24,311 nt of DNA. Origin: a virus. Its lineage: Duplodnaviria; Caudoviricetes. This document shows, one piece after another, positions 347-13,706 of this stretch. The translations under genes were made by a program, and so were the position numbers. The stretch spans positions 1 through 24,311 of the IMG/VR virus record IMGVR_UViG_3300031644_000019; one strand, 5' to 3'. The notes beneath the pieces are model-generated. The model made no database searches. It had not been told where the DNA came from and saw only the letters and a list, made by a program, of their open reading frames with translations. Every line of letters starts with the position of its first letter. The first letter of the stretch is position 1.

Positions 347-1918
347 ATGAATCCAAGGGAATTACATTTTGACAAAGAGGGAAGAGAAAAATTATTAGAG
401 GGCATTACTAAGATGTCCAAAACTGTAAAGAGTACATTAGGCCCATTAGGTAATACTGTAATGATGGAGTCTATGAATCACACAAGGGGAATGATTATCA
501 CCAAGGATGGTGTGACTGTTGCCAAGGAGATTGAGTTTGAAGATGCTGTAGAAAATTTAGCGGTAAAGATGATGAAGGAAGCTTCTGATAGAACTGCTAC
601 TTCAGCTGGTGATGGAACTACTACTGCGATAGTTTTGACTGAGGCCATTATAAAGGAAGGTATGCGACTGATAGATCGTGAGCCTAACATAAACACAAGT
701 CAATTGGCTCGTGATATAGTTAAGGTATCTGAAGGAATCATAAAGAGTTTAGATAAATCTTCAAAGAAAGTTTCTGGTAATACTTTACGTGACGTTGCTA
801 CTATCTCTACCAATAATGATAAGGATTTGGGTAAGATGATCGCTGATGCTTATAAGGATTTAGGAAAAGACGGTAAGTTAACTGTTGAGAATAGTAAGAC
901 GGAAGACACGTATTGTGACATTACTAAAGGAATTAAGATTGACAGAGGATATTCATCGAAGCTTTTTATAAATAACCACCGTAATGACGAGTGCATATTA
1001 GATGATGTGTATATTTTAATGACGGACATGGAGATAACTAACATTCTTCAGATTGAAAATGTGTTGAAGCCGATTATAAACGAGAATAAGAAGCTACTAG
1101 TAATTGGGAATTGTTCTTCAAATGTAACTAACACACTGGCTGCTAATGTAGTACAGAACAGCCTTAAGCTTTGTAATATTATGCCACCATCGTTTGGTTA
1201 TAAAACTAATGAGCTAATGGGTGATATTGCTTTGGCCACAGGTGCAAAGTATTTTAGTGAATCACAAGGAGACAACATAGGTATGTTGACCTTGCAGGAT
1301 TTGGGTCATGCGGATAAGATAGTAGTTGGGAAAAACGAGACCATTATAATCAAAGAAGGTGAGCGCACTGAGGATATTCAAGACAGAATAAAAGAACTTA
1401 AGATTCAGAAAGAGAATAACAGCAACAAAAACGAAAGAGATTTCATAGATGAACGTATTTCATTACTAACTGGTATGGTTGGTGTAATATATGTTGGTGC
1501 AAACTCAGATATTGAGCAAAAAGAAAAGTATGACAGGGTAGAAGACGCTGTTTGTGCTGTACGTTCTGCTATTGAGGAGGGTATATTACCAGGAGGTGGT
1601 ATCGCATTGCTTAGATGCGCGGAAGATTTGAGTGACGGACACGCGAGTGATGTGTTATATGGTGCGCTTATAGCTCCGATTGAACAGATTCTTATTAATG
1701 CAGGAGAGGATGTAAAGGATATAAGAGATAAAGTATGTTCTTGTTCTGATGTTCCTAAGAATTTTGGATATGATGTAAAAAATAGAGTGTATGGAGATAT
1801 GTACAAGATGGGTATTATAGATCCTGCCAAGGTTACGAAGAACGCGCTGAAGAATGCAGTGAGTGTAGCCACAACAATATTAAGTACAAACGCAATAGTA
1901 ACCATGAAAAGAAAATAA
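347..1918 (+). CDS. groEL: Phage-encoded group I chaperonin GroEL (Cpn60)
   Basis: Motifs TLGP, ITKDGVTVAKEI, GDGTTT (ATP-binding), DRGY, RVEDA..A..SAIEEGILPGGG and GIIDPAKV. 523 aa, no GGM tail. Confidence 0.97.
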   Translation: MNPRELHFDKEGREKLLEGITKMSKTVKSTLGPLGNTVMMESMNHTRGMIITKDGVTVAKEIEFEDAVENLAVKMMKEASDRTATSAGDGTTTAIVLTEAIIKEGMRLIDREPNINTSQLARDIVKVSEGIIKSLDKSSKKVSGNTLRDVATISTNNDKDLGKMIADAYKDLGKDGKLTVENSKTEDTYCDITKGIKIDRGYSSKLFINNHRNDECILDDVYILMTDMEITNILQIENVLKPIINENKKLLVIGNCSSNVTNTLAANVVQNSLKLCNIMPPSFGYKTNELMGDIALATGAKYFSESQGDNIGMLTLQDLGHADKIVVGKNETIIIKEGERTEDIQDRIKELKIQKENNSNKNERDFIDERISLLTGMVGVIYVGANSDIEQKEKYDRVEDAVCAVRSAIEEGILPGGGIALLRCAEDLSDGHASDVLYGALIAPIEQILINAGEDVKDIRDKVCSCSDVPKNFGYDVKNRVYGDMYKMGIIDPAKVTKNALKNAVSVATTILSTNAIVTMKRK

Positions 1919-2175
1919 TGAAAGCAATAGGGAAGTATATAGTTATAGAAGAGATTAAAGAACAGATAACAACTAACTCTGGAATTCTTTTAACGTCAGA
2001 TGACAGCGACCAATTAAGATATAAGAAAGGGTTAGTAGTTATCCCTGGTACAAGTGTCGACACTGTAAAAAAAGGTGATACTATTTATTATGATAAAAGA
2101 GCTGGGCATTCCATGATTTTAAATGAAAACATGGTTAGTATTATATCAGAAAATGATATTGTCGTAGTACTATAG
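1918..2175 (+). CDS. groES: Co-chaperonin GroES (Cpn10)
   Basis: 85 aa with mobile loop TNSGILL, VKKGDTIYY and C-terminal ISENDIVVVL. Coupled to groEL by a TAATG overlap. Confidence 0.9.
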   Translation: MKAIGKYIVIEEIKEQITTNSGILLTSDDSDQLRYKKGLVVIPGTSVDTVKKGDTIYYDKRAGHSMILNENMVSIISENDIVVVL

Positions 2176-2637
2176 TCCGTCTTTTATTTCTTGATTCATC
2201 TTTTTAATCATTTTACGGTAAACTTTATTACTGTATTCCGTTGATTTGTTAAAAATTGGGTTGTTTCTTCGGTCTTCGGAGATTACTTCTTCTTTATTTA
2301 ACTTTTTATAAATTGAAGCGCATACGCGCTTACCCTTAAAGCCGAGTTCGTAAAGAGTAGACTCTCTTCCTTTACGTTCTCGCCACTTTATTATCCACTC
2401 ATCTTTTAACATTTTATGAAATCTGTTCTTATCCCAGGACATTATCTCATTAAATTCTTCAAATTCAAATTTTGTGAACAGCCCTTCGCTATAAAGGAAG
2501 AGCATCATCTCAATGTCTGCTGTTCCTAGGCCGTATTTAGCTCTAGCCCACTGTTTTATAACCTTCCAATACTTTAAATAGTCTGCATTGGGTTCTTTTC
2601 TATCGTAGTTTTTACGAAATCTTGTCTTAAATTTCAT
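2170..2637 (-). CDS. Putative winged helix-turn-helix (MarR-like) DNA-binding protein
   Basis: GLGTADIEMMLFLY...RFHKMLKDEWIIKWR...LYELGFKGKR resembles a MarR wHTH with its wing (Y-x-L-x-x-K-G). Only credible minus-strand gene in the window. Confidence 0.6.
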   Translation of the reverse strand: MKFKTRFRKNYDRKEPNADYLKYWKVIKQWARAKYGLGTADIEMMLFLYSEGLFTKFEFEEFNEIMSWDKNRFHKMLKDEWIIKWRERKGRESTLYELGFKGKRVCASIYKKLNKEEVISEDRRNNPIFNKSTEYSNKVYRKMIKKMNQEIKDGL

Positions 2638-2650
2638 TGAATTAAATTTT

Positions 2651-2668
2651 TTATCTTTGCTAAGATAA
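2651..2668. promoter_or_regulatory. Palindromic divergent promoter / candidate operator TTATCTT-TGCT-AAGATAA
   Basis: Perfect 7-4-7 inverted repeat. Contains TATCTTTG (+, 2652-2659) and the near-consensus TATCTTAG (-, 2667-2660) within the 40-bp divergent gap. Confidence 0.65.
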
Positions 2669-2677
2669 CTTTTTTAT

Positions 2678-2989
2678 ATGGCATTAGGTAGAACAGCAAA
2701 ATATTATAGGGATAATCCTGAAGCAAGAAAGAAAAGACTTGCTTACCAGAAAAGATATAACGCTAGAAAAGCTCAGATAGCTCGAAGAGTTAGAAATAAC
2801 AGAGAGAATCATAAGTTTGGAACATATGGCAATTATGATGGAAAGGATGTTTCTCATAAAGGAAAAAGAATTGTTTTAGAAAAAGAATCTAAAAATAGAG
2901 CTAGTAAATCAAACACTCCTGGTGATAGAAGAGCTAGAGGAAAGAAGGGAAAAGGAAGAAAGAACAAAGGTAATACAGGGGGTAAATAA
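2678..2989 (+). CDS. Small basic protein with a degenerate HNH-like motif
   Basis: 103 aa, K/R-rich. DGKDVSHK...SKNRA resembles the GDGKDVDH...NR motif of small phage HNH proteins. Confidence 0.7.
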   Translation: MALGRTAKYYRDNPEARKKRLAYQKRYNARKAQIARRVRNNRENHKFGTYGNYDGKDVSHKGKRIVLEKESKNRASKSNTPGDRRARGKKGKGRKNKGNTGGK

Positions 2990-2991
2990 CA

Positions 2992-3144
2992 ATGGCAAAG
3001 AAAGGAAGAACAAAAGGAAACAAGATATGTCCATCAGGTATTGCATGGGCAAAAAAAACATTTGACAAGTACCCATCTGCGTATGCGAACATGGCTGCTA
3101 GTAAATACTGCAAAGATCCTAACTACGCAAAAAATAAAAAATAA
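2992..3144 (+). CDS. Small basic protein, 50 aa, YPSAYAN motif (not in ORF track)
   Basis: Hand translation: MAKKGRTKGNKICPSGIAWAKKTFDKYPSAYANMAASKYCKDPNYAKNKK*. Exactly fills the gap, with 2-nt spacers on both sides. Confidence 0.85.
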   Translation: MAKKGRTKGNKICPSGIAWAKKTFDKYPSAYANMAASKYCKDPNYAKNKK

Positions 3145-3146
3145 TT

Positions 3147-3446
3147 ATGAAAGACGTAAGAATATCATTGCCTTTGGCGCCAACTCAAATTAAGGATGAA
3201 AAACTACCTAAATTACGTATCGGAGAAGGTATGAAAGAAAGGTCTGTGGTAATGAGAGAAAGAGCGGCTAAAGTTAAGCATAAATCTAACATTGCCTTGG
3301 ATGAAGGAAGGATGAAAAAAGAGAAGCGTCTTTTAAATAGGTCTAAAAGAATCCAAAAGAGAAGCGACAAAGTAGAAAGAAAAGAAGCAAAATTCCGAAA
3401 CAAATTAGAAACAAGGAGAAGAAAAAAAATAATAAGAAATCAATAA
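3147..3446 (+). CDS. Small basic helical/coiled-coil protein
   Basis: 99 aa, K/R-rich; tiles with its neighbours. Confidence 0.75.
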   Translation: MKDVRISLPLAPTQIKDEKLPKLRIGEGMKERSVVMRERAAKVKHKSNIALDEGRMKKEKRLLNRSKRIQKRSDKVERKEAKFRNKLETRRRKKIIRNQ

Positions 3447-3448
3447 TT

Positions 3449-3568
3449 ATGAAAAAAAAATTCAAAACACACATGATGTGTAAAAAAGACAGGTGCATTA
3501 AGGTCAATTCTATGACAGAGCATTTTAAATTAAAAAAAGACGGATACACTCATAATAAGAAAAAATAA
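3449..3568 (+). CDS. Small basic protein, 39 aa, FKTHMM...H...GYTH motif (not in ORF track)
   Basis: MKKKFKTHMMCKKDRCIKVNSMTEHFKLKKDGYTHNKKK*; 2-nt spacers on both sides. Confidence 0.8.
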   Translation: MKKKFKTHMMCKKDRCIKVNSMTEHFKLKKDGYTHNKKK

Positions 3569-3570
3569 TT

Positions 3571-3654
3571 ATGGAAAAATTTATAGACTACTTACAACAT
3601 CAATGGAATAGACTAATGTATAAATTAACATTTAGAAATTATAAAAATAAATAG
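3571..3654 (+). CDS. Micro-protein, 27 aa, amphipathic helix (not in ORF track)
   Basis: MEKFIDYLQHQWNRLMYKLTFRNYKNK*; tiles exactly between its neighbours. Confidence 0.65.
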   Translation: MEKFIDYLQHQWNRLMYKLTFRNYKNK

Positions 3655-3656
3655 TC

Positions 3657-3974
3657 ATGCCAGGCACTATTAAAAAAAATAGAAAAAAGCATTTAAGAAA
3701 TCTTAGTAGAAATAGTTCAGGAAGAAATGCTACTGTAAGAATGGCAACATATACAGGTGGTGAAAATAATGATAAACATTATGCTGCACCAACTATTACA
3801 TTTAAAGGTAATGAAAAAGAAAAACCTCAAACTTTTAACCAAGCACTAGCGTCAGGTGAGGTTTATGAGTTTAGAAGTAAACGAAGAGCAGAAAGATTTG
3901 CTGCAGGGTCTTGGAAAAAAGGTAAGGCAAAAAGAGAGGCGATGAAACAATATAGAAAATCTAAAAAGAAATAA
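3657..3974 (+). CDS. Small basic hypothetical protein
   Basis: 105 aa with K/R-rich termini and FAAGSWK; tiles within the array. Confidence 0.8.
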   Translation: MPGTIKKNRKKHLRNLSRNSSGRNATVRMATYTGGENNDKHYAAPTITFKGNEKEKPQTFNQALASGEVYEFRSKRRAERFAAGSWKKGKAKREAMKQYRKSKKK

Positions 3975-3976
3975 TT

Positions 3977-4138
3977 ATGCCAACAGTAAAATATAGTTGT
4001 CCAGATACAGGTAAAACAATGAAGAAAAGTTTTCCTTACAATGCTATGGGTAAAGCTCAAGCACACACATTTGCAAAAACTATGGGTGGTTCTATGAAGA
4101 ATAATCCTACTACTAAAATGACTGAAGAAGGTTACTAA
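3977..4138 (+). CDS. Small protein, 53 aa, FPYNAMGKAQA motif (not in ORF track)
   Basis: MPTVKYSCPDTGKTMKKSFPYNAMGKAQAHTFAKTMGGSMKNNPTTKMTEEGY*; TAATG overlap with the next gene. Confidence 0.8.
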   Translation: MPTVKYSCPDTGKTMKKSFPYNAMGKAQAHTFAKTMGGSMKNNPTTKMTEEGY

Positions 4139-4386
4139 TGGGTGAGCTTAAAAAGTGGAGAGATGAGAAGTGGGTTCGTATAGGAACGGATGGTTCTATA
4201 AAAGGAGCTTGCGGTACTAGCAAAAATAAGAAGAATCCAGATAGGTGCCTACCATTAGCAAAGGCTAAGTCTTTGAGCAAAGCAGAAAGAGCTAAGACGG
4301 CTAAAAAAAAGAAGGCATCAGGAGGAAAGAAACAGTTTGTCTCAAACACAAAAAAAGCGAAAGTAACTAAAAAATATACTAAGTAA
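4138..4386 (+). CDS. Small basic protein (LKKWxxEKWV...CG...RCLP family)
   Basis: 82 aa; motif pattern recalled from viral proteins of unknown function; TAATG overlaps at both ends. Confidence 0.85.
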   Translation: MGELKKWRDEKWVRIGTDGSIKGACGTSKNKKNPDRCLPLAKAKSLSKAERAKTAKKKKASGGKKQFVSNTKKAKVTKKYTK

Positions 4387-4640
4387 TGGCAACACCAAGG
4401 AAAGGTAAAGCGAAAGTAAAAATTACTAAGTCAGGTAAAAAAGTAAGCTACGGTCAGGCTGGTAAAGCCAAAGGAGGAGGGCCAAGAGTAAAACCAGGTA
4501 CATCTAAGGGTGATAGTTATTGCGCTAGAAGCTTAGGAATAAAGAGGGGTTTATCTAGAAAAAAAGCAAACGACCCTAATACTCCTAACAATTTATCTCG
4601 AAAGAGATGGAAATGTTCAGGCGCTAAATCTAGAAAATAA
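4386..4640 (+). CDS. Small basic protein (SYCARS...DPN...RKRWKC family)
   Basis: 84 aa; KKVSYGQ, YCARS and WKC motifs recur in marine phage hypothetical proteins. Confidence 0.85.
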   Translation: MATPRKGKAKVKITKSGKKVSYGQAGKAKGGGPRVKPGTSKGDSYCARSLGIKRGLSRKKANDPNTPNNLSRKRWKCSGAKSRK

Positions 4641-4648
4641 AATATTAG

Positions 4649-4656
4649 TATATTTG
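4649..4656 (+). promoter_or_regulatory. Internal -7 promoter element TATATTTG
   Basis: TAnnTTTG in the 20-bp gap, only 4 nt before the ATG at 4661. Confidence 0.6.
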
Positions 4657-4660
4657 TATT

Positions 4661-4816
4661 ATGAGTAAATTCAATGAATTAGTTAAAAAGTTAATGTCTC
4701 AAGGAAAATCTGAGACAGCTGCGAAAAAAATTGCATACAGCATAGGTGCTAATAAGTATGGAAAAAAAGGAATGGCTAGGAAAGCAGCAGCAGGGGTAAG
4801 AAAATCAAGAAAATAA
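4661..4816 (+). CDS. Small basic protein, 51 aa (not in ORF track)
   Basis: MSKFNELVKKLMSQGKSETAAKKIAYSIGANKYGKKGMARKAAAGVRKSRK*. Confidence 0.8.
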   Translation: MSKFNELVKKLMSQGKSETAAKKIAYSIGANKYGKKGMARKAAAGVRKSRK

Positions 4817-4839
4817 TTATTAATAAGTAAATTTATATT

Positions 4840-5037
4840 ATGAAAAAGCAAGGTTACAATTCAAGACTTGATGAGTCTTTAGCAGCAAAAAACGGAAAAA
4901 AATCTCAATCTATGAAATCTCGTAGAGACGAATCAAAGGCAATGTCTAAAAAAGATTACGGACATGCTTATGGAGGAGATCATTCTATGAAGTATGAACA
5001 TCATTTAGGAAGCAATTCTAAAATATTTCAAAGATAA
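4840..5037 (+). CDS. Small basic protein (QGYNSRLDESL...RRDESK family)
   Basis: 65 aa with an internal (L/R)DES repeat and an A/T-rich leader. Confidence 0.8.
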   Translation: MKKQGYNSRLDESLAAKNGKKSQSMKSRRDESKAMSKKDYGHAYGGDHSMKYEHHLGSNSKIFQR

Positions 5038-5040
5038 ATA

Positions 5041-5199
5041 ATGAAATCAAAGGGATTTGGTGATACTGTGGAAAAATTCACAACCGCTACAGGGATTAAA
5101 AAAGCAGTAAATGCAGTTGCTAAAGCAACAGGCAAATCCTGTGGTTGTGGTAAAAGGAAAGATACTTTAAATAGAGTTTTTCCTTACGATAATAAATAA
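5041..5199 (+). CDS. Small protein, 52 aa, GFGDTVEK...CGC...LNRVFPY motif (not in ORF track)
   Basis: MKSKGFGDTVEKFTTATGIKKAVNAVAKATGKSCGCGKRKDTLNRVFPYDNK*; motif recalled from Bacteroidota phages. Confidence 0.85.
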   Translation: MKSKGFGDTVEKFTTATGIKKAVNAVAKATGKSCGCGKRKDTLNRVFPYDNK

Positions 5200-5217: not shown

Positions 5218-5820
5218 ATGGCAACACCAAACAATGAACAGTTTGTAGGATTTAATCCGTCAGTGGATTTAACTGAAAGAGCATCAAAATTAGTAAATAG
5301 TCAAAGGCAGATATATACCTACGAAGAAATGATGAGTGGAGCTGTTGGAGTCACTACATTAGAAGCAGGCACACAAGGACAGACTGCTGGAATAAGCAAG
5401 TTAGCCGCTACATATAACATTGGTGGAATAGAATATGATTCTTATAATTTAAAATGTATCGCATCTTTAACTCCTGAAGCTACAGCTTTTGTTATTGCTA
5501 TTGGTTCTATTGAGGTGGGAGCAGGTAATATATTTTTTATAAGCAATCGTTCTAACGTTGAGTCTGTAGACTTCCAAGGTTTTGGTGGGTATACAAACAA
5601 CCCATTAAACTTTGGAGCAATGGTTGATAATGCTCTTGATGTATCCAACCCTAACTTGGGACTTTTATATGTTAATCAATTAAACATACCAGATTTTCCT
5701 ATAGAGTTTAATGCAATGTACATTGTTGGAGCAAACCCAACAAATTTTGAATGCGATGCTTATATTGACATGGACTTTATTGTATCAAAAAATGAAACTG
5801 TAGAATTTACAATAGCTTAA
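5218..5820 (+). CDS. Hypothetical protein, acidic and beta-rich (possibly virion-associated)
   Basis: 200-aa ORF with an A-rich leader; composition shifts sharply from the basic array. Confidence 0.75.
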   Translation: MATPNNEQFVGFNPSVDLTERASKLVNSQRQIYTYEEMMSGAVGVTTLEAGTQGQTAGISKLAATYNIGGIEYDSYNLKCIASLTPEATAFVIAIGSIEVGAGNIFFISNRSNVESVDFQGFGGYTNNPLNFGAMVDNALDVSNPNLGLLYVNQLNIPDFPIEFNAMYIVGANPTNFECDAYIDMDFIVSKNETVEFTIA

Positions 5821-5824
5821 AAAA

Positions 5825-6241
5825 ATGGAAGAAACACTAATAAAAGTAACAGACGTTAAAGGAACAATCCTTAAACCAATAGAAGCAACCTTTAAGGTAG
5901 AATACAAATACGAAGGAGAAGCTGTAGCGGAAGAAGTATTGTCAGGAGATGTAAGAAGGGGAACGGTAAAAGGAGAAAAATTTCCTGTACCCGATGCAAC
6001 AAAAGATTTAGAATATTCAGAGGTTAAAATCGATGTTAAGGGGGGAGTCCAGAATCTAAACTACGCAAGTAAGACTCTTAAATTTTTTGGTAAGTTACCT
6101 CCATTGGGATTGGATACGGGTCTTCCATTTAAAGGTATAATACCTAAAACAAAAAAGGAAAAGCAAGGAGCTATGGCCGATAGAAGAGAAACTCTTCTTT
6201 CACAATTAAAAGAAAAATATCCACCACAAAAAACAAAATAA
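5825..6241 (+). CDS. Hypothetical protein
   Basis: 138-aa ORF tiling between its neighbours. Confidence 0.75.
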   Translation: MEETLIKVTDVKGTILKPIEATFKVEYKYEGEAVAEEVLSGDVRRGTVKGEKFPVPDATKDLEYSEVKIDVKGGVQNLNYASKTLKFFGKLPPLGLDTGLPFKGIIPKTKKEKQGAMADRRETLLSQLKEKYPPQKTK

Positions 6242-12912: not shown

Positions 12913-13146
12913 ATGGAACAAATAAGAAAAATATCAATAGGCGCTGATTATAAATCAGGAGCCATGCATTATATTCTAAATCAAGAAATATTTGGTGGTA
13001 CACATGTAATTCATTTAATTAAAAAAAATGAATCAAAGCAATCACTAACTATTTTTATTGAAAACAAAAAGGGAGAAATATTTCTTTGGAAAGAATTTAA
13101 TTCTTCTATTCCTGTTTCAATTGAATATAATATATATTTTGAATGA
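12913..13146 (+). CDS. Conserved hypothetical phage protein (IRKISIGADYK...AMHY...WKEFN...SIEY)
   Basis: 77 aa, first gene of the packaging operon; ATGA overlap with the next gene. Confidence 0.85.
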   Translation: MEQIRKISIGADYKSGAMHYILNQEIFGGTHVIHLIKKNESKQSLTIFIENKKGEIFLWKEFNSSIPVSIEYNIYFE

Positions 13147-13706
13147 AATCACCTTTTTATTTTATAGTAAAACCTAAAGACAATAGGAGATACGATAACA
13201 CTAAAAAAATAGGTAATATAGATTTTATTACCAGTACATCAAAGGAAGACCATATCGCATCTAACCGATATGCAGTAGTGGTAGAAACTCCAATAAACTA
13301 CTCTGGTCCTATAGAAATAGGAGACATGCTTTTAGTTCATCATAATGTTTTTAAATATTATAATGATATGAAAGGAAAAGAAAAAAGTGGAAAAAGTTTT
13401 TTTAAAGATGATTTATTTTTTATAGATAACGATCAGTTTTTTATGTATAAACATAATGATGTTTGGAATGCACATTCTAAATATTGTATGATAAAACCAA
13501 TACCTAAAAAAAGTTATTATTTAAAAAGTCATGAAGAAGAAGAACCCTTAATGGGTTTAGTAAAGTATTCTAATAAATACTTAATCAGTAAGGGAATTAA
13601 TAAAGGCGACAAGATTTCTTTTAAACCAGAAAGTGAATATGAGTTTGTGGTAGATGGAGAAAAATTATACAGAATGTTTGACCATCAAATAACTTTATCT
13701 TTATAA
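13143..13706 (+). CDS. Tandem GroES-like (double Cpn10-domain) protein
   Basis: Two halves, each GroES-like: FIVKP...AVVVETP...IEIGDMLLV and CMIKP...GLVKY...INKGDKISF...EFVVDGEKLYRMFDHQI. Confidence 0.6.
   Translation: MKSPFYFIVKPKDNRRYDNTKKIGNIDFITSTSKEDHIASNRYAVVVETPINYSGPIEIGDMLLVHHNVFKYYNDMKGKEKSGKSFFKDDLFFIDNDQFFMYKHNDVWNAHSKYCMIKPIPKKSYYLKSHEEEEPLMGLVKYSNKYLISKGINKGDKISFKPESEYEFVVDGEKLYRMFDHQITLSL

What the first reader, a model, noticed from the sequence alone, without database searches (positions are those of the whole stretch)
2678..5199. Array of 12 consecutive tiny, mostly highly basic proteins: candidate phage DNA-condensing / nucleic-acid-binding module
Seen: 2.5 kb is tiled almost without gaps by 12 same-strand ORFs of 103, 50, 99, 39, 27, 105, 53, 82, 84, 51, 65 and 52 aa. 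Six are below the ORF-track cutoff and were translated by hand. Most are Lys/Arg/Gly-rich with poly-basic tails and share no obvious similarity with each other. The array has its own promoter, an internal promoter (4649), and lies between the chaperonin and virion genes. Inference: a dedicated multi-gene system, for example protamine/histone-like internal virion proteins that neutralise packaged DNA, ejected proteins that shield the genome from host defences, or ribosome/RNA-binding takeover factors. I know of no described function for such an array.
Basis: partly seen in the sequence, partly recalled or inferred. Interest (0 to 1): 0.82.

Follow-up and report, generated by a model that had tools for sequence, protein, structure and literature searches.

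The report
Swappable basic mini-proteins for phage heads
A marine phage that likely infects Flavobacteria carries a row of twelve genes for tiny, positively charged proteins that are likely packed inside the virus head with the DNA, because relatives of three were reported in purified phage particles and other viruses encode the same pieces as one long chain with predicted head-protease cut sites between them.

Summary
The 12 ORFs exist as described (97.7% tiling; pI 9.6-11.4). Eleven have conserved relatives, and the ten testable ones show dN/dS of 0.06-0.36. The array is a cassette with a core (ORF1, 2, 8, 9, 11, 12) and accessory genes exchanged start codon to start codon, in a ~60-kb Pervagoviridae/Elemovirus-like phage. 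Its families belong to a pool shared by unrelated marine phages, usually beside head genes. ORF1's relative in Cellulophaga phage phi40:1 is annotated from virion MS/MS. ORF8- and ORF9-like modules lie inside cyanophage proteins detected in virions. In other viruses ORF2, 4, 8 and 9 are fused into polyproteins, with a T4-prohead-protease-type L/I-X-E motif just before most modules. Best reading (0.6): T4-internal-protein-like head cargo that binds and partly neutralises DNA, encoded here directly as the mature pieces. Full protamine-like condensation fails a charge budget; the loading route is unknown; no function is tested. ORF1 is a degenerate HNH and may instead help packaging. This scan has reported similar arrays on other DNA many times; my ten literature searches found no description.

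The parts
2170..2637 (-). Conserved 155-aa gene transcribed away from the array (phrog_17028, weak); used as anchor; homologues lie next to or two genes from ORF1 homologues in elemoA, Panino and phi38:1
2652..2659 (+). TAnnTTTG promoter-like box 18 nt before ORF1; box present in 25 of 27 relatives
2678..2989 (+). ORF1, 103 aa, phrog_6437; degenerate mini-HNH-like; homologue of MS/MS-annotated phi40:1 gp080; in 20 of 24 relatives
2992..3144 (+). ORF2, 50 aa, phrog_27331; two invariant Cys; always with ORF8 (21 both, 3 neither of 24)
3147..3446 (+). ORF3, 99 aa; accessory slot with three natural states (this gene, absent, or replaced by an unrelated 112-aa basic gene); no relatives found beyond strain variants
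3449..3568 (+). ORF4, 39 aa; accessory; module also found inside polyproteins
3571..3654 (+). ORF5, 27 aa; accessory; in 3 of 24 relatives, dN/dS 0.07 (one comparison)
3657..3974 (+). ORF6, 105 aa; accessory here (precise indel against L001) but a conserved family of 200 clusters elsewhere
3977..4138 (+). ORF7, 53 aa; in 8 of 24 relatives
4138..4386 (+). ORF8, 82 aa, phrog_23735; remote relative of the DUF5872 C-terminal half and of a T4-GC119 module; in 21 of 24 relatives
4386..4640 (+). ORF9, 84 aa; remote DUF6321 relative; fills an obligatory slot held in other relatives by a DUF5754-like gene (11 vs 13 of 24, never both, never neither)
4649..4656 (+). Internal TAnnTTTG box 4 nt before the ORF10 start (would give a leaderless mRNA; inferred)
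4661..4816 (+). ORF10, 51 aa; accessory; cluster of 9 members
4840..5037 (+). ORF11, 65 aa; in 17 of 24 relatives; module also in pelagiphage HTVC027P gp47
5041..5199 (+). ORF12, 52 aa; conserved CGC motif; in 24 of 24 relatives and in freshwater MW202828
6244..6510 (+). Conserved 88-aa gene (phrog_12296, tail fibre) that marks the downstream end of the cassette in relatives

Best explanation
The array is a gene cassette at the front of a virion-gene operon whose small basic products are likely carried inside the phage head, where they would bind and partly neutralise the packaged DNA, much as T4 internal proteins do. Shown: the genes are conserved, exchanged whole at start codons, and drawn from a pool that unrelated marine phages keep beside portal, terminase and capsid genes. 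Shown: other viruses encode the ORF2, 4, 8 and 9 modules fused in polyproteins, with acidic linkers that end in an L/I/V/M-X-E motif just before the module. Inferred: a T4-type prohead protease cuts those chains in the head and frees the modules, and this phage, with no protease gene between portal and capsid genes, encodes the freed pieces directly. Inferred and weakest: loading here is electrostatic, via the acidic scaffold (pI 4.9) and capsid protein (pI 4.5) or the DNA itself, since no targeting tag was found; and some members leave with the DNA on infection. The core supplies fixed functions (an ORF2+ORF8 pair and one obligatory ORF9-or-alternative slot); the accessory genes turn over between strains.
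For: Virion reports: phi40:1 gp080 is annotated 'structural protein ... experimental MS/MS'; ORF1 matches its phi38:1 twin at 41% over 66 aa and the ORF1 profile hits both at 5e-11 with 0 hits in a reversed database; it lies two genes from the anchor homologue. S-SM1 T4-GC119 was detected in purified virions with 13 counts (PMC3037559 Table S8 row); it carries DUF6321, to which ORF9 aligns at 97.8% probability, and a module to which ORF8 aligns at 95.7% (eight cross-controls all under 2%). S-CREM2 ORF137 (DUF6321) gave 4 peptides in CsCl virions (PMC10665884). Context: the nearest large same-strand gene is capsid (16), portal (15), terminase (8) or other head protein (1) in 40 of 55 ORF9 loci, over four capsid PHROG families. 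Polyproteins: 13 of 148 representatives carry two or more of the window's modules, 6 carry ORF2+8+9; P0346 is 87%, 57% and 54% identical to ORF2, 8 and 9. An [LIVM]xE site lies within -10..+4 of the projected module start in 81 of 103 ORF9, 6 of 9 ORF2, 6 of 6 ORF8 and 2 of 3 ORF4 modules against 0.23-0.31 background, with only 5 sites in 10,217 aa inside ORF9 modules; the residue two before the last Glu is L/I/V/M in 68 of 94 against 20 expected. T4 gp21 cuts after L/I-X-E (PMC9026906), and T4 IPs are basic, ~360 copies, DNA-binding, with 10-19-aa targeting leaders. Selection: median dN/dS 0.06-0.36 for ten ORFs, GroES control 0.14.
Against: No protein of this phage has been seen in a particle. 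Very basic proteins can co-purify on DNA or capsids, and the S-CREM2 authors raise co-purification for other proteins. T4-GC119 appears not detected in Syn9 (column order inferred). The S-TIM5 ORF9 homologue gp065 is not annotated as a virion protein although two neighbours are; elemoA gp62 and gp66 are 'hypothetical'. The cyanophage peptides are not mapped to the shared modules, and S-CREM2 ORF137 is acidic overall (pI 5.0). Cultured relatives manage with 1-2 members and freshwater MW202828 with 3, so the long array is not essential. The window's proteins have no leader or shared tag. The motif window and leader patterns were chosen after seeing the sequences, the representatives are related, cleavage is not shown, and I did not show that the polyprotein-bearing contigs encode a gp21. 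One predicted site falls inside the start of the S-SM1 DUF6321 domain. At 100 copies each the 12 proteins would offset only ~15% of the phosphates of a 60-kb genome.
Confidence: 0.6

Rival explanations
1. The proteins act in the infected cell during DNA packaging or maturation and are not true cargo; ORF1 would be an HNH-type terminase helper like HK97 gp74 (recalled), and the others DNA chaperones for the concatemer.
For: ORF1 aligns with small HNH_3 proteins at 88% probability and the nearest Pfam-bearing Atlas clusters are HNH; the model has a beta-hairpin plus helix at 56-75; D57 and N73 are kept in 75 of 76. Homologues directly follow the terminase small subunit in Syn5 and overlap it in S-CBP1 and DSL-LC07. 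Head-gene context fits this reading too.
Against: The putative catalytic His is kept in only 67 of 76 and the HNH loop is shortened. The phi40:1 homologue is annotated from virion MS/MS. Protease-type boundaries in the polyproteins fit release inside a prohead.
Confidence: 0.17
2. The main job is counter-defence: the proteins are packaged and ejected to block host nucleases or sensors, like T4 IPI against type IV restriction enzymes; DNA neutralisation is incidental.
For: Strain-level turnover in an otherwise near-identical cassette resembles the variable T4 IP genes; the small size would pass a portal; the ORF9 module is also fused to HD, NUDIX, GNAT and nucleotidyltransferase domains in larger proteins.
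Against: Core members are 66-74% identical across phages of Flavobacteria, roseobacters and vibrios and under strong purifying selection, unlike host-specific inhibitors. DNA mimics are usually acidic (recalled). No target is known.
Confidence: 0.14
3. They are RNA- or ribosome-binding host-takeover factors.
For: Size, Lys content and Cys pairs resemble small ribosomal proteins (composition; resemblance recalled). RNA-library contigs cover the array.
Against: No Pfam or NCBIfam family above cut-off for any of the 12; homologues sit beside head genes; virion reports.
Confidence: 0.05
4. The array is only a recombination hot spot that collects unrelated small genes; basic composition follows from A-rich DNA and there is no shared function.
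For: Genes swap at short shared start-codon junctions; acidic, tail-like genes are interspersed in many relatives; AT skew is high here.
Against: Low dN/dS; strict ORF2-ORF8 co-occurrence and the obligatory ORF9 slot, switched at least three times on the anchor tree; repeated fusion of the same modules in other viruses.
Confidence: 0.04

Closest known systems
Phage T4 internal proteins IPI, IPII, IPIII (PMC9026906, passages and section 2.5 read)
   Same: Small, basic, DNA-binding, dispensable, poorly conserved set; the fused homologues elsewhere show leader-like N-termini and L/I-X-E boundaries of the gp21 type.
   Different: No sequence similarity; the window's proteins have no targeting leader; no protease gene in the head module seen; families are shared across unrelated marine phage groups; up to 13 genes in one row.
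T4-GC119 / DUF6321-bearing proteins of T4-like cyanophages (S-SM1 SSM1_115, S-SM2_109, S-CREM2 ORF137)
   Same: Carry ORF9-like (97.8%) and ORF8-like (95.7%) modules, perhaps an ORF2-like one (20%); lie between terminase genes; two reported in virions.
   Different: One 490-708-aa chain rather than separate genes; ORF9 itself is below the Pfam cut-off.
Cellulophaga phage phi40:1/phi38:1 gp080 (Pervagoviridae)
   Same: Homologue of ORF1 near the anchor-gene homologue; phi40:1 record says MS/MS-based structural protein.
   Different: Stands alone, not in an array; function unassigned; I saw only the GenBank note, not the paper.
Pelagiphage HTVC027P gp44-gp52 and Roseobacter phage CRP-7 gp63-65 clusters
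   Same: Rows of small basic genes with homologues of ORF2, 8, 9, 11 (HTVC027P) or ORF8-like and ORF9 (CRP-7) just upstream of capsid or terminase genes.
   Different: Different hosts and phage groups; all annotated hypothetical; no virion data seen.
Small HNH terminase helpers such as HK97 gp74 (recalled)
   Same: ORF1 keeps a D-x-x-H ... N-R pattern and a hairpin-plus-helix; homologues follow the terminase small subunit in some cyanopodoviruses.
   Different: Loop shortened, His not invariant, no Pfam HNH hit, far from the terminase here.
Protamine-like core proteins of large eukaryotic DNA viruses (abstract of PMC6163548 seen)
   Same: Small, basic, proposed to sit on packaged DNA.
   Different: Lys- rather than Arg-dominated, core members have invariant Trp/Tyr/Cys cores, and feasible copy numbers give only partial neutralisation.

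Membership tests
T4-type internal head proteins (IPI-III) | Small and basic | tested here: met
   27-105 aa, pI 9.6-11.4
T4-type internal head proteins (IPI-III) | N-terminal capsid targeting leader ending in L/I-X-E | tested here: not met
   No window ORF matches the leader pattern; leader-like starts in 36 of 96 fused homologues and 0 of 52 small ones (patterns post hoc)
T4-type internal head proteins (IPI-III) | Processing by a gp21 prohead protease | tested here: inconclusive
   Only a scaffold gene lies between portal and capsid genes; PF03420 search empty but its control rang nowhere and the record is ~40% complete
T4-type internal head proteins (IPI-III) | Sequence similarity to T4 IPs | tested here: not met
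   No such family in Pfam, PHROGs or NCBIfam scans
T4-type internal head proteins (IPI-III) | Hundreds of copies inside the head, ejected on infection | not testable with these tools
   Only presence of homologues in virion proteomes
T4-type internal head proteins (IPI-III) | Variable gene content between close relatives | tested here: met
DUF6321 (PF19846), for ORF9 | Pfam score above gathering cut-off | tested here: not met
   No hit at E<=0.1
DUF6321 (PF19846), for ORF9 | Homology of the C-terminal Cys/Trp core to bona fide members | tested here: met
   hhalign 97.8% over 39 columns; ORF9 profile hits HTVC027P gp52 at 1e-8, a Pfam member; named Foldseek hits are DUF6321 proteins, E 0.4-1.6
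DUF5872 (PF19197), for ORF8 and ORF2 | Match to the family profile as two halves | tested here: inconclusive
   Window ORFs have no hit; ORF8 homologues HTVC027P gp50 and CRP-7 gp63 match positions 49-109 just under the cut-off; ORF2 as N-half not shown
HNH endonuclease, for ORF1 | Beta-beta-alpha metal finger topology | tested here: inconclusive
   Model has strands 56-61, 64-69 and helix 70-75 at pLDDT 62-73; fold searches gave no match
HNH endonuclease, for ORF1 | Invariant catalytic His and metal ligands | tested here: inconclusive
   D57 and N73 in 75 of 76, H60 in 67 of 76, Ser at the position before His
HNH endonuclease, for ORF1 | Nuclease activity | not testable with these tools
   Needs an assay
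Protamine-like condensing proteins | Arg-dominated low-complexity sequence (definition recalled) | tested here: not met
   Lys 20.5%, Arg 8.4%; conserved aromatic and Cys cores
Protamine-like condensing proteins | Enough charge to neutralise most of the genome | tested here: not met
   360 copies of each give 52% but 33 MDa of protein against 39 MDa of DNA; 100 copies give 14.5% (assumed 60 kb)
Phage-borne ribosomal proteins | Match to a ribosomal protein family | tested here: not met

The most novel reading that the evidence does not exclude
Marine viruses share an undescribed, ocean-wide 'virion chromatin' toolkit: a pool of small folded basic modules that every lineage must load into its head, delivered either as protease-cut polyproteins (T4-like and other large phages) or as separate mini-genes (protease-less podophages like this one), with interchangeable non-homologous slots and some families reaching algal giant viruses; it would set DNA packing, stability in seawater or protection after injection for some of the most abundant viruses on Earth.
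Probability: 0.3. Interest if true: 0.85.

Novelty: new variant of a known kind. Interest (0 to 1): 0.58.

Why it matters
Tailed phages are usually thought to pack nearly naked DNA with small ions and polyamines, T4's internal proteins being a known exception (recalled). These families are very common (2066 clusters for ORF9; about 2200 IMG/VR stretches), often fall below gene-calling limits, and are poorly seen by tryptic proteomics. If they are head cargo, a large block of marine viral 'dark matter' gets a place and a testable role, and cultured phages that carry them (phi38:1/phi40:1, elemoA, CRP-7, HTVC027P, S-SM1) make the test possible now. The polyprotein-versus-separate-gene contrast gives a sharp prediction of mature N-termini.

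Tried and rejected
Pfam, NCBIfam and PADLOC gave no hit above cut-off for any of the 12 ORFs. Fold searches of the ORF1 model found nothing (Foldseek PDB 0 matches; VIA best Z 2.5), nor did VIA for ORF9 (best Z 3.1); these absences show nothing about novelty. The sigma-70 scan was not informative (22 sites vs 16.7 +/- 4.7). No DNA repeat family beyond start-codon junctions. A shared capsid-loading tag, suggested by earlier scan notes, was looked for by eye in termini of 45 pool families and five scaffold tails: only basic tails, no motif. Homology between ORF9 and its slot alternative was not shown (0.4%; no hit). ORF2 versus the S11 pool family was not significant (0.2%). ORF3 has no usable Atlas hit and no exact record. 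P0292 (a TPR protein) was dropped from the representative set as an apparent false positive before the counts. Five of 29 anchor loci were left out of the presence table because they did not reach the downstream marker gene; 14 of 69 ORF9 loci had no large gene nearby and were not classified. Metatranscriptome contigs cover the array in several studies but cannot show strand, start or level; low cover over the opposite-strand anchor gene in 3 of 4 runs is only a weak hint that they are RNA. PMC13288928 (abstract, passages, section 6 part 1, supplement search) uses other gene numbers and gave nothing on gp080; PMC4819975 passages gave nothing. No elemo virion proteome was found. A complex prediction for ORF2 with ORF8 was not available, so their binding is open.
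Full report
Setting. The window is the whole held record (24,311 nt; CheckV estimate 40% complete). It encodes GroEL, GroES, an M15 peptidase, a second GroES-like protein, terminase, portal and capsid protein. The portal's best GenBank matches are an uncultured spring phage MW202828 (66%), Maribacter phage Panino (49%) and Flavobacterium elemo phages (45%); the capsid protein also matches Cellulophaga phi38:1/phi40:1 at 40%. It is therefore likely a ~60-kb podophage of marine Flavobacteriia (inference).

Observation. All twelve ORFs are present with the stated lengths, separated by -1 to 23 nt, covering 97.7% of the stretch against at most 41% in 1000 resamplings. They are Lys-rich and basic (net +174 over 810 aa) but not Gly-rich. 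No two of the ten alignable families resemble each other. A minus-strand gene lies between groES and the array. TAnnTTTG boxes (Bacteroidota -7 element, recalled) precede ORF1 and ORF10; the same box precedes groEL, the scaffold and other structural genes and is kept in 25 of 27 relatives, though the motif by itself is not enriched.

The genes are under selection. Against distinct homologues from 109 fetched loci, median dN/dS was 0.16 (ORF1), 0.07 (ORF2), 0.36 (ORF4, n=1), 0.07 (ORF5, n=1), 0.22 (ORF7), 0.06 (ORF8), 0.06 (ORF9), 0.27 (ORF10, n=1), 0.23 (ORF11) and 0.23 (ORF12); controls were GroES 0.14 and the 88-aa tail gene 0.28; saturated pairs were excluded. ORF6 had no homologue in those loci but has 200 clusters in the protein collection with a conserved core. 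ORF3 is the only one without relatives beyond strain variants. RNA-library contigs from several marine studies cover the array, which does not prove transcription.

A core-plus-accessory cassette. Of 29 loci fetched with the neighbouring gene, 24 span the array. ORF12 is in 24, ORF2 and ORF8 in 21 (both or neither), ORF1 in 20, ORF11 in 17, ORF9 in 11, ORF7 in 8, ORF5 in 3, ORF4 and ORF10 in 1, ORF3 and ORF6 in 0. These loci include near-duplicates (20 different anchors among 25 rows). The 13 loci without ORF9 all carry a different 96-aa basic gene (weak DUF5754 match) and none has both; the label changes at least three times on the anchor tree and one clade is rejected (AU p 0.011). Homology between the two was not shown, so this looks like an obligatory slot with two interchangeable occupants. 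Relatives carry other basic families and often acidic, tail-like genes inside the row. Against near-identical L001, ORF3 is replaced from start codon to the next junction and ORF6 is a clean indel between two starts sharing six bases; environmental contigs show ORF3 present, deleted at an 11-13-nt shared junction, or replaced. Exchange by short homology at translation-start junctions is the likely mechanism (inference).

A pool shared by unrelated phages. ORF9 has 2066 clusters and homologues in Roseobacter CRP-7 (70%), Vibrio phages (66-74%), pelagiphages and cyanophages. In 55 of 69 ORF9 loci with a large gene nearby, that gene is capsid, portal, terminase or another head protein in 40, unclassified in 11 and something else in 4. 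HTVC027P has its own row with homologues of ORF2, 8, 9 and 11. ORF1 homologues occur in elemo, Panino, phi38:1/phi40:1 and T7-like cyanophages. Cultured close relatives have only one or two members and MW202828 three. DUF5754 and DUF5872 are both listed for the algal giant virus CpV-BQ1 (PMC12085832, one table passage).

Virion evidence, all indirect. The phi40:1 record annotates gp080 from MS/MS (I did not read the underlying paper); it is an ORF1 homologue. S-SM1 T4-GC119 was detected in purified virions, 13 counts, but apparently not in Syn9 (PMC3037559, passages and supplement rows). It carries DUF6321 and modules that align with ORF9 (97.8%), ORF8 (95.7%) and weakly ORF2 (20%). S-CREM2 ORF137 has DUF6321 and four peptides in CsCl virions (PMC10665884, passages), but is acidic overall. 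Against: the S-TIM5 homologue is not annotated as a virion protein, and peptides are not mapped to the modules.

Polyprotein form. A profile search over 1.84 billion representatives gave 333 hits; 97 of the 149 new ones listed are longer than 125 aa. After dropping one TPR false positive, 13 of 148 carry two or more window modules and 6 carry ORF2, 8 and 9 together. Modules are joined by acidic linkers. An [LIVM]xE motif lies at the projected module start in 81 of 103 ORF9, 6 of 9 ORF2, 6 of 6 ORF8 (4 exactly at the start) and 2 of 3 ORF4 cases, background 0.23-0.31, and is nearly absent inside modules; the composition-matched control gave 68 of 94 against 20. T4 gp21 cuts after L/I-X-E (PMC9026906 section 2.5). 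Leader-like N-termini occur in 36 of 96 fused and 0 of 52 small proteins. The patterns were set after viewing the data, the sequences are related, and no protease gene was demonstrated on those contigs, so processing is a prediction. If right, the mature products there are the same free peptides that this phage encodes as genes.

ORF1. It aligns with small HNH_3 proteins (88%), the nearest Pfam-bearing Atlas clusters are HNH, and the model has a hairpin plus helix (mean pLDDT 72). The loop is shortened and His60 is kept in 67 of 76. Homologues follow the terminase small subunit in Syn5. It is best called a degenerate HNH-derived DNA binder; a packaging-helper role is the main rival.

Mechanism and odds. 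Most likely (0.6): made with virion genes, loaded into the prohead, bound to the genome as partial counter-charge, some possibly ejected. A charge budget rules out full neutralisation: 100 copies of each offset about 15% of phosphates. Loading is unexplained, as no tag was found; electrostatic capture by the acidic scaffold and capsid protein is a guess. Rivals: packaging helpers in the cell (0.17), counter-defence first (0.14), RNA or ribosome takeover (0.05), mere hot spot (0.04).

Novelty. It works like T4 internal proteins but fails membership (no leader, no homology). Ten full-text searches (listings seen) found no description of such arrays; subscription papers and bioRxiv supplements were not searchable, and older virion proteomes (phi40:1, S-TIM5, Syn5, P-SSP7) may hold more. 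Earlier notes of this scan describe similar arrays on other DNA and supplied the T4-GC119, DUF5872 and S-CREM2 leads, which I checked. Verdict: real, conserved, functionally untested; new variant of a known kind; interest 0.58.

Noticed in passing
window 347-2175 and 13143-13706: Phage GroEL and GroES plus a second, 187-aa GroES-like protein (phrog_13932) before the terminase; also seen in elemoA and Panino.
   Followed up: no
window 2170-2637 (-): Conserved 155-aa gene that stays next to ORF1 homologues in elemoA, Panino and phi38:1 although orientation differs; looks like a winged helix by eye (unverified); possible regulator of the late operon.
   Followed up: partly
window 4649-4663: Promoter-like box only 4 nt before the ORF10 start, suggesting a leaderless mRNA; one RNA contig begins at 4661 and another ends at 4663, but contigs cannot show starts and the loose letters look like adapters.
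   Followed up: partly
window 5218-6241: Two further accessory genes (200 aa acidic, 138 aa pI 9.2) absent from L001 and skipped by one environmental contig at a 7-nt shared junction; no family hits.
   Followed up: partly
P0259, P0274, P0287, P0332, P0344, P0361: The ORF9 module is fused to HD, portal-like, NUDIX, nucleotidyltransferase or GNAT domains in larger proteins; it might act as a portable DNA-binding or head-loading module.
   Followed up: no
L118:1591-1932 (phi40:1 gp069): A second basic protein (phi38:1 twin: 113 aa, pI 10.9) annotated from MS/MS, lying among tRNA genes and unrelated to the array families.
   Followed up: no
L125, L156, L162, L184: Genes next to the polyproteins often begin with the same leader-like N-terminus, hinting at a block of head-targeted cargo genes in these uncultured viruses.
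   Followed up: no
L007-L012, L014, L015, L021-L028: A pair of acidic genes (49-54 aa Cys/Glu-rich and 193-258 aa) is inserted between ORF1 and ORF2 homologues in 16-18 relatives.
   Followed up: no
L030:9094-10019 (MW202828): In this freshwater relative the first slots hold a longer HNH gene and another unrelated gene, followed by only three basic genes.
   Followed up: partly
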